From positions 49,042,001 to 49,106,000 of the forward strand of contig OX597835.1 in NCBI GenBank assembly GCA_951406725.2: a stretch of 64,000 bases of DNA, in the 5' to 3' direction. Shown here one piece after another: positions 3,459 through 63,650 of the stretch (its first letter is position 1; each line of letters opens with the position of its first letter). The position numbers and the translations under genes are program-made. A model generated the notes under the pieces. It did no database searches. It was given only the letters and a program-made list of their open reading frames with translations, and was not told the origin of the DNA. Source of the stretch: Octopus vulgaris. Lineage: Eukaryota.

Positions 3459-4254
3459 TGAGGGGTGCTGGAAAATTCCTGGCTTTGGGTAGAAGGAAAT
3501 ACAGGAGGATCAGCTAATTATGAATTTTGTGCAACATATCCCCCCCCCCCTCTCAGATTCCTACACTTATTGCAGCGTTCCAGCAAACCCAGACTGGATG
3601 TCGTTTTCCGGAAGCGAGTCGAGGACCTTCTGCGATTCGCTCTGGATTTCGACCACGGTGTTAAAACACCGGCCTTTGAGTTGCATTTTCACCTTGGGCC
3701 AAATCTAGCGAATAGGGTGGATTCAGAAGGGTGGATACCATGTTGTATACTCGCGAGAAACTCGCGAGTGAAGAGAGCCCAGTGACATAGGTGCACTGTT
3801 GTCGCGAGGAATCTAATTCTTCGCGATCTTCAGACCTGGTCACTTTCACCGAATGTCCTCCCTCAATCGCTTCAAAACCTTCCATTGACCGTCTCCATGC
3901 ACAATATCATATTTCTGTGGGTGACTAAGCGGCCGGACTTTCTGATCGCTCGTCATCTTCCAGGGACTTTCTTCCGCTTTTGAAGCGTCCGTGCCGTACG
4001 ACCCATTGACTCGTTGACGTAAGCTTGCCGAAGCATGTCTCTGCAGCAGACCTCCAAAGGCCCTCTCAATGACAAATCGCAAACTACAGCATACACGTCA
4101 TAACAAAAACACTACAACTTGCGAAGTAAACACAGCCATGCCACCCGGCACACTGCCTCATGAAGGTCACTGCAAACTTTCATTGCGTACGCAATAGTGT
4201 GCTGCCATCTGTTGGCATCTACAGAACTAGTCCGAGTACTTTTGGATACTAACT

Positions 4255-4256
<2 letters not shown>
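3459..4256 (-). mobile_element. Degenerate mariner-type DNA transposon remnant
   Basis: Minus-strand peptide LLNPPYSLDLAQ (mariner HPPYSPDLAP motif). The ends are mariner-style (tgaggggtgctggaaaattcc / revcomp caagttagtatccaaaagtactc) within TA-rich flanks but match each other poorly. Confidence 0.7.
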
Positions 4257-4333
<77 letters not shown>

Positions 4334-4509
4334 CGTTCCAGCTTCACGGATGATTACCACTTGTTTGTGTTTTCTCATTATCAGCGGCGTTTCTGATTTT
4401 CCGTTGATGTGTCCTCTCAGATGAAAAACTCAGTCCCGTTGCAAATCTGCGTCGTATATATATTATATAAATATATATTATATATATATATATTTATATA
4501 TATATATTA

Positions 4510-4575
<66 letters not shown>

Positions 4576-5179
4576 CACGACTGTTTTATAGCCAGCTACT
4601 TACCACACGACTACCGCTATGTATATGTATATATATGTACATATGTAAGAACCATATAACACGAGAATGGCGAATATCGATTGTTTTTGCACGACACAGC
4701 ACCTTTAGACTGCTGACTTTATGTCAATATACCATTAGACAAGACTATTCATTATAATCATCATCATATAGTTAAATACTTTTCGGCAGCGACTGTATGG
4801 GGGCGCTTAATCGGGTAAAGTACGATTAAGAACTCTTGAATGTTTCTGAATATCTTACTGTAAGATGACATTTGGTAACCAAAATAACATAATAAGAACT
4901 CTTAAATGCACATAATTATAAGCAGGATCCAATAGAATCGATGTAATTTAACAATAAGGACGAAACAGCTGTAGTGAACCTCCGTCCATCCGTGTTATTG
5001 TGTGTGTGTGTGTGTAGATATATACTTACACGTATACATATGTATATCCGTGTGTGCATTGTTGCCAGAAAATGCTAAGGCTAAGGCTAATTATTTTACA
5101 GATGAGCGTGTGTGCATGTATATGTATGTGTATGTGCTTGCGTGTGAGTTGCATGTTTGCGAGTGACACAATTTATTAT

Positions 5180-5229
<50 letters not shown>

Positions 5230-6744
5230 ACATTAAAGATTTTTTGAAAAGTAAAAAGCGCGGTATGATATCATAACTGTGCAATATATAACATTATAAC
5301 ACAGCAACTTCATCGTACGGAAAGCGTTTAGATGAAGGTTTCTAATCCCAGGAGAGCAATTCTTCAAGCTGCCCTACACTTTGCCAAAAATAAATGAAAG
5401 AATGAATAAGTAAATAAATAAATAAGTAAATAAACAAACAAACGAATAAATAACTAAATAAACGAGATTATTCTCTCGAATGGAACGTGGCGGCTGGATC
5501 ATATTGCAAGAAAACCTTACCTAGTTCACTCGTAATAACTTTCTGAAAGGTTTGACCTCTGAAACTTAATTTTCTCTCGACGGCAGAGTACAGGCGCTAA
5601 TTTGGTGTCGCTTTCATTCACGGTGGCGGTGGTGGTGGTGGTGGTGGTGGTGGTGGTGGTGGTGGTGGTGGTGGTGGTGGTTGGTTGGTTATGGACGCAG
5701 CATTAAAGGTTGGCAGTTAGGGTTTAGTATATGAGGTTTGGGGTGGGTGGGGGTGAGGGTTAGGGTGAGGGTAGTGGATGATCTTCGAGGTGGTTGCTAC
5801 ACTTGCCCGTTGTTTGTGGATGCGTGTGTCTCTGTTTACAGATATGTGTGTACTTATATATCATTACATATGTGTATGTGCGCATATTAACTCGGTGGCA
5901 CGTATTCAGGACTTTTCCCTATAAATATATATATATATATATATATGTACAATGTGTGTGTGTAAGTGTGTAAGTGTGTGTGAACAACACATGTATGTAT
6001 GTTTTCACTGTGTGTAATTCTACATACGTGTATGTGTATTTCTTATACGCGGGTGAATTTATAAATGTATGTATGTGTCGAATGTATAAATGAATGTATA
6101 AAAGCATGCTTATGCGGGAGCGTTCTTCATGTTGTCATAACCCTATTCTAAGCAACAGCATAGGGCTACAGTCTCAACAATAGTATGTGGTTATATGATC
6201 AATAGTACAGGGCTATACGCTACACAATTGTAAATGGCAACATCCCAAGCAACAGTGTAAAGTGTTACCAGCTGCATTGCAGAAGTTTTTAGCAGAGGTC
6301 TTTACTATCGTCAATTTACTATATTGTTATTCTACGTCTAATAAACTGACCTGCCAACCTTATATATATATATATATATATATATAAATATACCATATAT
6401 GTAGGCATTTATGTATGTAGGTATTTATGTTTGTATGTATGTAAGTATGTATGTGTGTAGGTATTTATGTATGTACGTATGCATGTATGTATACATGTAT
6501 GTATGTATGTATGTATGTATGTATGTATGTATGTATGTGTGTATGTATGTATGTAGGTGTAGGTAGGCAGGTAGGTAGGTAGGTAGGTAGGTAGGTAGGT
6601 AGGTATAACACCTAATAACTTATAAACAACCAATTATTAAAGGTCAGAAATTTTTCAGAAAAGCCATTTTTATTCATTTTTTCAAATATATAATACTGTA
6701 CCAAGGATTTTCTATTTCTTAATCTACTATATATATATATACAT

Positions 6745-13672: not shown

Positions 13673-13679
13673 ATATATA

Positions 13680-13946
13680 TTACGGAAATGTACTTGCATA
13701 GCGAGTGACTTCATCTGAGATCGTGTGCTTGAACGAAAACAATTGCAGCGTGGAAGGTGTTTATATGCCATTTAAGAAACACACAAAACCGTTAGATTCA
13801 CTTGAACATTTAAATTGAATTTGTCAAAATATTTTCGTCGCTTTGAGACGGCGACCTGTTCACTGACAAAATATCGTGCTGCACGATGTTTTGAATCTAA
13901 CGGTTTTGTGTGTTTCTTAAATGGCTTATAAACACCTTCCACGCTA

Positions 13947-13950
<4 letters not shown>
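13680..13950 (-). mobile_element. PLE-type terminal repeat with inverted arms enclosing a G3-C8 variant hammerhead
   Basis: Inverted arms 13747-13800 / 13892-13945; HHR 13820-13870; downstream motif ttcaagcacacga shared with the elements at 38440 and 54291. Confidence 0.7.
13820..13870 (-). ncRNA. Type-I hammerhead ribozyme, G3-C8 swapped core
   Basis: tttgtca GTGAACA g gtcgc-cgtctcaaa-gcgac GAA AATATT T tgacaaa: 7-bp stem I, 5-bp stem II, palindromic stem III. Confidence 0.72.
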
Positions 13951-14012
<62 letters not shown>

Positions 14013-38429: not shown

Positions 38430-38660
38430 AAATATCTAAAAATATTTCGTTTTTGGATTTGGTTTGCAGGATTCTTTATATGAGTTCGTGTGTTGAAGCA
38501 TATTCTGTTGTGTGTGGGGAGAGTCATTCTCTTTTAGTACCTTATTATTTAACACACGCACCGGTGAAATTTCCACTTATTTCGTCTTTTTATTTTCCTA
38601 AAATTTTCGTTGCGTCTTGCAACCTTTTCAATAGTCTTGACTCTGTCCGTTATTTACACT
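38430..38660 (-). mobile_element. PLE-type terminal repeat with a U3-A8 variant hammerhead (38598-38634)
   Basis: cta TTGAAAA g gttgc-aagac-gcaac GAA AATT T tag; downstream gtgcgtgtgtt..ttcaacacacga, shared with 13680, 54291 and (in part) 63140. Confidence 0.65.
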
Positions 38661-39310: not shown

Positions 39311-39970
39311 CTACCATCTATATTTCCTATATAGTATTGGGAAAGTTTCATTTATGAGGACATACGCCCGTATTTGTCTGAGTGTTGGGTCCTTTGGGTG
39401 CTTAGATAAGATGCGGATGTCAAGTTGACCCAGGTTGACTCTATGTTGGTCCTTGGCATGTTGGTAGAGTATGGAGAACTGTTTTCTGTCGTCATATTGT
39501 CTCAGATGTTCATTTAGTCGTTCCGCAATGTTCCTAGACGTCTCACCTATGTACGTCATGTTCATGTCCTTACAAGCACCTTCTATGCATCTTATGCTGT
39601 AAACTACATTTCGAAGGCTAATCCTACACACTATGCAGTTATAAATGCTAATCCTATACACTATGCAGTTATCAATGCATATGACATTCTCAAAGGAGTA
39701 CGTCTTACATAGTTGTGATCTGACGAGTTCTCTGACTTTTCAATAATCTTAATGTTGAGTTTGGTCTCCTTCAGAGCTTTTCTAAATTTTCGGGCTAATT
39801 TTCCATGAGCTGTGGCCTCTACAAACATCACTCCTTGATATTTATACCACGTGTTCCCCCTCTTTGCTTTGTCACAAGTTATTTATATCCTATTCCATTC
39901 TTTGTTTCTATATCTAGGGCAGGTACCACTGATATCATTACGTATAATGTTGTCTAATTTCTTTCTAGCC
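39311..39970 (-). mobile_element. Penelope-like element fragment, Naiad-like linker plus GIY-YIG endonuclease
   Basis: GTCPRYRNKEWNR..WYKYQGVMFVEATAHGKLARK..IKIIEK, frameshift, then NVVYSIRC..TYIGETSRNIAERLNEH..LYQH..H; one stop and a 30-nt tandem duplication (39618-39677). Confidence 0.85.
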
Positions 39971-40549
39971 CCCCACCCCACCCCCTGTATACTCGAACCC
40001 TATCTTTCTGATCATATCCAAAGAATTGCATGCGGTGCATGAAGTTCTGTACATGTTTCTTCGTTTCATAGGGTTCGCATAGTGGGGACACATTGTTCAT
40101 TATCCTAAGTCTGCTATCAGTATGCTAATTTTCATGTCGTGTGACAAAGCTGAGTTCTTGTGAACAGCGGTGAGTGTGTTAAATTATAAGGCACGAAAAG
40201 ACAACGACTCGCCCCAGACACAATAGAATATGTAAAAAATGCTGAGTGTGAAAACTCAAACAACAGCGGCACAGACGACAGTAAACCACAACACAGCGTA
40301 CAGTTGTCATGGCAACAAGCTGTTAATGCCATTCTGTCTGTTGATTGGCTAAAATTACCCAAAATTTCCCAACTTCAATTCCAGATAACATCAGTTTCTT
40401 TATTTTACGAGATAAAGTAATTAGTTGGTCGTCATCAAAATTCAGAGTTGCATCGATACACCAAAATTGAAAGCAACCTGATCAAAACTAGGGGGTGGGG
40501 CTGATTTTGCGAATGAGAAAGACTAGATCCGAAATCGATATTATTATCG

Positions 40550-54195: not shown

Positions 54196-54760
<565 letters not shown>

Positions 54761-57147: not shown

Positions 57148-57384
57148 TTAAATAAAATGAGACAAGAAAGTCAAGGCTGTGTGGAATTTTCAGGGCATTT
57201 ATAAAGAGAAAGTTTGTCTTACAGCTGTTTCTGGGATATTAGCGATATCCCATCATCAGAGACGGTATGAGAGAGGTAAATAGTAGACTCCTTATATTGA
57301 ACTTTACTATTCCCCTCTTTTTTCTCTTTATAAATGTCCTGAAAATTCCACACAGTTTCGGCTCTGTTGTCTCATTTTATTTAA
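57148..57384. mobile_element. Inverted PLE terminal-repeat arms enclosing a canonical hammerhead
   Basis: Arms 57148-57211 / 57321-57384 are reverse complements. Confidence 0.72.
57216..57263 (-). ncRNA. Canonical minimal type-I hammerhead ribozyme
   Basis: gtct CTGATGA tgggatat-cgcta-atatccca GAA ACAGCTGT A agac: intact core, 8-bp stem II, palindromic stem III, GUA triplet. Confidence 0.88.
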
Positions 57385-63134: not shown

Positions 63135-63650
63135 GCATATTGTTATGTTTCGGGGAGGTCATTCTTTCTTTGCCAAATAAATGCACGCACTATATGTTCG
63201 TTCTTCACTCGTTTATGATAGTTCATAATTTATTTTATGTGCATTGTCTGGAAATCTTTCGTCACACATCTGTGACCTCTTCAGCGACTTTCCATCGACG
63301 TGTTTCCTCCGATTCTGTTTAGTCCATGTTTATATATGTTCTTCTTGAAAGAATTCAAACCGATCGCTAATAAAGCGACAAGACCTTTTTTTGAGTTAAG
63401 TGAATCCCCGGTGTTTGTGAATATATGGTTTGAGTTGGTGTGTTGCTTGAGCTGTCGATGCGTACACCCAAGTGTATGCATCTGTTCACCAAAAGGACCT
63501 CAGGTGGAGAATTTTGGGAATGTCTCACAAATCTTCACTGTGCCACAAATAAATTAGATTTGGAGGATCCACGTCAGTTTCTTTTGCTCTTTCTCAATAA
63601 AACCAAGAATTTTTTGGGTTTTGTGCAAATGTTGTTGGTACATAACCTAA
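63135..63650 (-). mobile_element. Degraded PLE 3' end (endonuclease remnant plus terminal repeat with hammerhead 63246-63288)
   Basis: Minus-strand ICGTVKICETFP, LGCTHRQLKQH, KHGLN, then gtcg CTGAAGA g gtcaca-gatg-tgtgac GAAAG; downstream atatagtgcgtg..agaatgacctcccc, shared with 38440 and 54291. Confidence 0.6.

What the first reader, a model, noticed from the sequence alone, without database searches (positions are those of the whole stretch)
13820..13870. Natural G3-C8 swapped hammerhead: the 3-8 core pair covaries across one related PLE terminal-repeat group
Seen: the minus strand reads tttgtca GUGAACA g gucgc/gcgac GAA AAUAUU U ugacaaa. This is a complete type-I hammerhead whose core has both C3->G and G8->C. 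Related repeats share downstream motifs (GTGYGTG-TT, TTCAA(G)CACACGA) and the same layout (one extra G before stem II). They carry UUGAAAA (U3-A8, 38598-38634) and CUGAAGA (C3-G8, 63246-63288). Established: positions 3 and 8 form a Watson-Crick pair in the active hammerhead, compensatory swaps can retain activity, and PLEs carry minimal hammerheads with palindromic stem III. Inference: three different 3-8 pairs imply selection for cleavage in a family that CUGANGA-based searches would miss.
Basis: partly seen in the sequence, partly recalled or inferred. Interest (0 to 1): 0.85.

Follow-up and report, generated by a model that had tools for sequence, protein, structure and literature searches.

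The report
Core-swapped hammerhead in Penelope retroelements
Thousands of copies of one animal retrotransposon family carry a hammerhead-shaped RNA motif in which two normally fixed core letters are swapped but still complementary; this is likely a natural version of a rescue mutant known from the lab, though cutting has not been shown.

Summary
A pattern with positions 3 and 8 left free gives 16,709 exact genomic hits against 3 in the control; 6,659 are G3-C8. The motif lies in the terminal repeat (pLTR) of a Penelope-like element (PLE), 55 nt upstream of an RT + GIY-YIG ORF; one element carries it in both pLTRs, 4.26 kb apart. Sister families have U3-A8 or C3-G8, and an older family also has G3-C8. 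The covariation supports a selected hammerhead fold.

Cleavage is not shown. Against fast cleavage: 42 of 55 sampled arms span the uncut motif and only 2 start at the cut site; G3 is predicted to pair with U17; a sister family has an uncompensated A9C; RNA reads show no end pile-up.

Natural U3-A8, the extra base and the engineered C3G/G8C rescue are published. I found no natural G3-C8 in print, but could not read two key papers. The scan noted G3-C8 candidates in two other genomes. Verdict: new variant of a known kind.

The parts
13820..13870 (-). Type I minimal hammerhead motif with G3-C8 core (family A). Predicted cut between 13827 (U17) and 13826.
13856..13863 (-). Core strand G3-U4-G5-A6-A7-C8-A9 plus the extra G before stem II
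   Evidence: family trait
13679..13883 (-). Solo pLTR copy of the PLE: short leader, hammerhead, spacer, first 31 codons of the ORF, ending at the usual 3' end next to a TA repeat
13679..13771 (-). Start of the PLE ORF (MAYKHLPRC..., 31 codons). In longer copies it continues into the RT + GIY-YIG ORF.
13892..13951 (+). 60-nt inverted partial copy (95% complementary to 13741-13800), the usual PLE 5' inversion, followed by (TA)n
   Evidence: I16
38598..38634 (-). Family B hammerhead (U3-A8, extra G, 3-bp stem I, AAUU stem III, U17)
39314..40109 (-). Broken C-terminal ORF piece (linker and endonuclease) of family B, upstream of its hammerhead
   Evidence: 41-54% identity to P0018
54474..54520 (+). 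Family D hammerhead (C3-G8 but C at position 9), followed by its ORF start near 54604
63246..63288 (-). Family C hammerhead (C3-G8, extra G, AGAUUU stem III, C17)

Best explanation
This is the hammerhead motif in the terminal repeat of an endonuclease-bearing Penelope-like retrotransposon family, fixed with a swapped G3-C8 core pair that likely keeps the active-site geometry and is predicted to cut only slowly, with help from a second copy or the element's protein. Shown: position in both pLTRs of a complete element, 55 nt before the ORF start; fixation of G3-C8 in a young and an old family; Watson-Crick covariation of 3-8 across sister families; stems I and II kept with different sequences. 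Inferred: transcription starts about 60 nt before the cut site (capped RNA). The two motifs of a more-than-unit transcript, 4.26 kb apart, pair through the palindromic AAUAUU or are folded by the ORF protein, and occasionally cut after UUU. Cutting is slow enough that most reverse-transcribed copies come from uncut RNA.
For: Family fixation: 6,659 of 16,709 hits. In the first 100, 93 have a Watson-Crick 3-8 pair in three types (G-C 40, C-G 33, U-A 20). Old family E (copies about 61% alike over the aligned window, flanks included) is G3-C8 in 32 of 48 rows and C3-G8 in 0, with different N7, loop II and stem III loop and a compensated outer stem I pair. Young ORF-bearing copies (98% alike) changed loop II but kept the core. 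Complete element with the motif in both pLTRs. Relatives from other organisms: U3-A8 (L292) and C3-G8 (L293, L294). Three independent double changes (A/E, B, L292) all land on a Watson-Crick pair; chance 0.037 given that both positions changed. Engineered C3G/G8C partly rescues a PLE hammerhead that is protein-assisted (PMC11167929, passages) and is the only rescuing double mutant of this motif in a pairwise scan (PMC9901934, passages). TA-joined 5' ends are denser at -1..+4 of the cut site than at -15..-2 (18 in 6 positions against 11 in 14, p = 0.0003).
Against: No cleavage assay. 42 of 55 non-passenger arms begin at or upstream of stem I and only 2 lie within 4 nt of the cut site, one by stem I microhomology. 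The excess is not significant at -1..+1 alone (8 places, p = 0.06), has no downstream control, and could be RT stalling at stem I. G3-U17 is predicted to extend stem I (p = 0.50-0.67), the known inactive 3-17 trap; the stem III dimer is worth only -0.2 kcal/mol. Family D carries A9C in 24 of 26 listed hits and L292 too, so the core is not strictly kept. RNA reads cover both strands about equally with no end pile-up (organism B, random-fragment libraries, weak test). Evidence for selection after the swap is modest: 5 of 6 free core positions are unchanged between A and E against 34% change in the spacer.
Confidence: 0.55

Rival explanations
1. The fold is selected but cutting is not: the hammerhead-shaped junction serves as a binding or positioning signal for the element's RT-endonuclease, or for translation, so any 3-8 pair that keeps the shape will do.
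For: Most insertions come from uncut RNA. A9C is tolerated in family D and L292, and L293 lacks the canonical A15.1. In the PAc element, hammerhead mutants do not affect insertion in vitro and no reads end at the cut site (PMC11167929). Cervera and de la Pena also leave functions other than cleavage open (PMC4209133).
Against: The 3-8 pair is a feature of the active conformation and is absent from ground-state minimal structures (PMC3884650, passages). G12, A13, A14, U16.1 and a non-G at 17 are kept in families A-E. There is a mild excess of 5' ends near the cut site.
Confidence: 0.3
2. The motif is a relic. It lost function in the ancestor of the A/E lineage, and the complementary swap is chance or reflects DNA-level promoter constraint just downstream of the start site.
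For: Only one G3-C8 origin is documented here. Single mutants at 3 or 8 are nearly dead in assays, so the path to G3-C8 crosses a valley that is easiest without selection. Old copies decay freely (16 of 48 family E rows have other 3/8 letters). Naiad PLEs thrive without canonical hammerheads (PMC8557442).
Against: The changes fall on exactly 3 and 8 in three lineages. Stems I and II stay paired across families A-E and in L292 and L294 with different sequences. A common stem I variant keeps pairing as G-U. G3-C8 persists from the old family to the youngest one.
Confidence: 0.15

Closest known systems
Minimal type I hammerheads of metazoan PLEs (Cervera and de la Pena 2014, PMC4209133; read: parts 1-2 of 4 of the text, parts 1-2 of 3 of supplementary file 2)
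   Same: Location in both pLTRs, many solo and inverted copies, extra base between 9 and 10.1, G10.1-C11.1, short palindromic stem III, frequent U17, natural U3-A8 covariation.
   Different: G3-C8. The 56-motif alignment as read shows only CUGA or UUGA cores. Their consensus extra base is H; here it is G in all five families.
PAc (Poseidon, Anolis) hammerhead and its engineered C3G/G8C mutant (Frangieh et al. 2024, PMC11167929; passages)
   Same: Hammerhead next to the ORF start in the pLTR, two 3' ends (tail), insertions from unprocessed RNA; the same swap partly restores cleavage.
   Different: There the swap is a lab mutant and the ORF starts inside stem II. Here the swap is natural and fixed, and the ATG lies 55 nt after the cut site.
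Natural hammerhead core variants (Perreault et al. 2011, PMC3088659; passages)
   Same: Natural covariation of the 3-8 pair, to U3-A8.
   Different: No G3-C8 in the passages read. Figure 5 itself was not visible.
Neptune/Nematis-type EN+ PLEs (as described in Craig et al. 2021, PMC8557442; passages)
   Same: [quoted passage not shown]
   Different: Not placed against named reference elements here. The two 3' ends are about 55-60 nt apart rather than 30-40.

Membership tests
Type I minimal hammerhead of PLEs | Literal CUGANGA core | tested here: not met
   GUGAACA in the window and in 95 of 100 listed copies
Type I minimal hammerhead of PLEs | Watson-Crick pair possible between 3 and 8 | tested here: met
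   G3-C8; covaries with U-A and C-G in sister families
Type I minimal hammerhead of PLEs | U4, G5, A6, A9, G12, A13, A14, A15.1-U16.1 and H17 | tested here: met
   All present in family A; H17 = U
Type I minimal hammerhead of PLEs | Stems I and II with G10.1-C11.1 and an extra base after A9 | tested here: met
   Pair probabilities 0.5-1.0 in context
Type I minimal hammerhead of PLEs | Short palindromic stem III allowing a dimer | tested here: inconclusive
   AAUAUU is palindromic, but the duplex is -0.2 kcal/mol and monomer pairing about 0.001
Type I minimal hammerhead of PLEs | Located in the pLTRs of a PLE | tested here: met
   L253: same motif at 5237 and 9498 around the ORF, plus an inverted copy
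Type I minimal hammerhead of PLEs | Self-cleavage after H17 | not testable with these tools
   Indirect proxies are mixed
EN+ Penelope-like element, Neptune/Nematis type | [quoted passage not shown] | tested here: met
   1025-aa open frame with YVDD; PF01541 at E 1.8e-5, above cut-off. Pfam gave no RT hit; RT is read from motifs and from 42-54% relatives.
EN+ Penelope-like element, Neptune/Nematis type | CX2-5CxxC linker before the endonuclease | tested here: met
   CQSNCAVC in P0018; definition from PMC8557442
EN+ Penelope-like element, Neptune/Nematis type | pLTRs, inverted 5' copies, tail, TA targets | tested here: met
EN+ Penelope-like element, Neptune/Nematis type | Placement in the Neptune clade against named elements | not tested
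   The tree holds no named reference
Non-LTR retrozyme | Head-to-tail tandem repeats of a short non-coding unit | tested here: not met
   Copies are solo, inverted or ORF-linked

The most novel reading that the evidence does not exclude
This PLE clade has repeatedly rewired the hammerhead core (G3-C8, U3-A8 twice, C9 twice) while staying active, because the element's protein or a dimer props up the site. The G3-C8 ribozyme is a tuned slow switch: uncut capped RNA is the template for insertion, while cutting 55 nt before the ATG makes an uncapped message or a unit-length 4.26-kb RNA. G3-C8 hammerheads would then be a widespread class missed by CUGANGA searches.
Probability: 0.2. Interest if true: 0.78.

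Novelty: new variant of a known kind. Interest (0 to 1): 0.52.

Why it matters
Either single step from C3-G8 towards G3-C8 nearly kills cleavage in assays, yet a whole retrotransposon lineage sits on the far side in thousands of copies. It gives natural support for the 3-8 pair in its third form and a matched set of sister families (G-C, U-A, C-G, C9) to test the open question of whether PLE hammerheads are kept for cutting or for shape. It also shows that CUGANGA descriptors would miss about 40% of these motifs in this genome from G3-C8 alone (6,659 of 16,709).

Tried and rejected
Rfam: the whole-window list shown (150 of 477) was dominated by microsatellite-driven miRNA matches, and the local scan gave no hammerhead.

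False full-length candidates: pairs of hits 2.7-6 kb apart on C1 and 3.5 kb apart on C2 were passengers in larger repeats or duplications. One insertion carried by another palindromic repeat made up 13 of 30 loci and 24 of 79 arms, so exact-hit counts overstate independent insertions; inverted arms are also counted twice.

3' splice site reading of the fixed 5' end: the upstream sequence looks like branch point, pyrimidine tract and AG, but I saw no shared exon 1 in short copies, family E lacks the tract and no RNA joint was listed. A capped start at AGATG fits better: G precedes it in 13 of 21 rows, or 10 of 18 after dropping 2 doubtful and 1 duplicate row, against 18% background. This stays an inference.

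U17 as co-adaptation to G3: rejected as specific, since U17 also occurs with C3 and U3.

The permutation value 1/168 is not used as evidence: lineages are related and two of the eight were read by eye.

No RNA holder was listed on record. Of 17 metagenome loci, 12 were scanned after the ORF end; 3 gave a motif by script, 1 more by eye (L297), none G3-C8. No ORF was recovered for family E, so it is not in the tree.

Papers not held: Lunse et al. 2017 and Przybilski and Hammann 2007.

Full report
Observation. The minus strand at 13870-13820 holds a 7-bp stem I, the core GUGAACA, one extra G, a 5-bp stem II, GAAA, the palindrome AAUAUU and U17. A relaxed descriptor found two hammerhead-like sites in the window; a strict one found 1 real site and 0 in 30 local shuffles. 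Folding gives stems I and II but z is only -1.75, and stem III does not form in the monomer. Rfam has no hammerhead hit here.

The swap is the family state. The stretch is a dispersed repeat in a 2.8-Gb genome. With 3 and 8 free, 1,141 exact matches were found; of the first 100 listed, 95 are G3-C8, 2 G-U, 1 U-C, 1 G-G, 1 A-A and none C3-G8. A more general pattern (3, 7, 8 free; 9 = A or C) gave 16,709 hits against 3 in the control, 6,659 of them G3-C8. I sorted the first 100 by hand: family A 42 (39 G-C), B 21 (20 U-A), C 7 (7 C-G), D 26 (26 C-G), E 3 (1 G-C), other 1. These counts include both arms of inverted copies and passengers of another repeat (13 of 30 loci; 24 of 79 arms). Contigs from two other coded organisms also show GUGAACAG in loose-end consensus lines, and RNA reads of a third list no change at 3 or 8 among the 40 rows shown of 172.

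What the repeat is. The ATG at 13771 opens 31 codons. Longer copies show the hammerhead followed by this ATG running into a long ORF, and ORF ends followed by about 1 kb of 3' UTR and the same hammerhead. L249 has a 1025-aa open frame with RT motifs, a CQSNCAVC linker and GIY-YIG (PF01541, E 1.8e-5). L253 carries the identical motif 4.26 kb apart on both sides of its ORF, plus an inverted copy; that ORF has stops. Two 3' ends, inverted 5' arms and TA targets match the PLE features in PMC8557442 (passages). It is an EN+ PLE of Neptune/Nematis type; the exact clade was not tested.

Their N-terminal peptides are homologous. Family B has its own ORF end in the window at 40109-39314. A fourth family, D, sits at 54.5 kb, and its 1309-aa ORF is 54% identical to family A over 814 aa. 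In a 26-row tree of the C-terminal region, the A lineage is sister to B plus (C, D) at 98/96; the C row is only 28% filled and the root is midpoint only. Relatives at 44-46% identity from metagenome contigs have U3-A8 with C9 (L292) or C3-G8 (L293, L294); 9 of the 12 scanned gave nothing by script. By parsimony and the canonical prior, C3-G8 is ancestral, U3-A8 arose twice and G3-C8 once. Three double changes all giving a Watson-Crick pair has probability 0.037 given that both positions changed, before counting that the changes fell on 3 and 8.

Persistence after the swap. An older family E has GUGACCA, a 6-bp stem II, AAUU in stem III and a G-C outer pair in stem I where A has U-A. Of 51 hits, 48 are E-type: 32 G3-C8, 16 scattered decay variants, none C3-G8. 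The youngest subfamily (98% alike) changed loop II only. This is modest evidence, because much of the E core was fixed by my pattern: 5 of 6 free core positions are unchanged against 17 of 50 spacer columns changed.

Does it cut? Not shown. In a sample selected only by sequence downstream of the motif, 42 of 55 non-passenger arms start at or upstream of stem I, 9 inside the motif, 2 within 4 nt of the cut site and 2 downstream. Many start at AGATG about 60 nt before the site, often after a G (13 of 21 rows), which I read as a capped start site. So most insertions were copied from uncut RNA, as reported for PAc (PMC11167929, passages). Among TA-joined truncated copies (first 100 of 352 rows, collapsed by eye to 40 places) ends are denser at -1..+4 than at -15..-2 (18 against 11, p = 0.0003), but -1..+1 alone gives p = 0.06 and there is no downstream control. 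Two RNA runs gave 1,324 and 1,010 reads on both strands about equally, almost all on the pLTR part, with no end pile-up; this looks like read-through of scattered copies. G3 is predicted to pair with U17 at 0.50-0.67, the type of 3-17 pairing proposed as inactive in PMC3884650, which also notes that a G3-C8 variant works better with G17 than C17 (passages). Family D has C at 9 in 24 of 26 listed hits.

Mechanism. Most likely (0.55) a selected hammerhead that cuts slowly with dimer or protein help. Rivals: fold selected without cutting (0.30); relic (0.15). One possible use of a cut 55 nt before the ATG is cap-independent translation, reported for viral ribozymes (PMC13725137, abstract only); this is untested here.

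Prior art. Natural U3-A8, the extra base and low, dimer-dependent activity are in PMC4209133 (text parts 1-2 of 4, supplement parts 1-2 of 3). Natural U3-A8 is also in PMC3088659 (passages). Engineered C3G/G8C rescue is in PMC11167929, PMC8495972 and PMC9901934 (passages). I also read part 1 of 5 of bioRxiv 10.64898/2026.07.22.740005 and passages of PMC6765202 and PMC6155905, with no G3-C8. Eight searches found no natural G3-C8 hammerhead. Lunse et al. 2017 and Przybilski and Hammann 2007 were not held, figures were not visible, and one supplementary file of PMC4209133 could not be searched, so absence from print is not proven. Two earlier notes of this scan describe G3-C8 candidates behind PLE RTs in other genomes; I did not test them.

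Verdict. Real, family-wide and covarying: a new variant of the known PLE minimal hammerhead, with activity still to be shown. Interest 0.52.

Noticed in passing
window 54474-54690 (+); L251, L259, L366: Young sister family D has C at position 9 in 24 of 26 listed hits; a distant relative (L292) has C9 together with U3-A8. C9 plus the extra G may be a tolerated arrangement in this clade.
   Followed up: partly
window 57210-57265 (-): Canonical CUGAUGA type I hammerhead with no extra base and a long stem II, apparently another repeat family.
   Followed up: no
L293, about 116 nt after the ORF end: Hammerhead-like motif with C3-G8 and extra G but U at 15.1, possibly a U15.1-A16.1 swap. Single copy, parse uncertain.
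   Followed up: no
L111, L112 and 13 of loci L081-L110: One inverted family A insertion has been multiplied as a passenger inside a larger palindromic repeat of several kb; the carrier was not identified.
   Followed up: no
family A 5' ends, e.g. L006, L010, L013, L146, L149: Short copies often begin G+AGATG, consistent with reverse transcription of a cap at a defined start site. This would map the PLE promoter from genomic copies alone.
   Followed up: partly
L114:270-3716 (-) and 3704-5095 (-): Apparently intact two-ORF non-LTR retrotransposon (1149-aa ORF with endonuclease- and RT-like motifs; 464-aa upstream ORF), read by eye.
   Followed up: no
L251:3951-7877 (+): Family D ORF of 1309 aa contains a roughly 250-aa Asn-rich insert absent from family A, and Pfam gives no hit on the whole protein.
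   Followed up: no
L216:3-947 (-), L216:9170-9899 (-), L215:9050-9901 (-): Fragments of other PLE-like ORFs (RT or GIY-YIG ends) near family A copies, read by eye.
   Followed up: no
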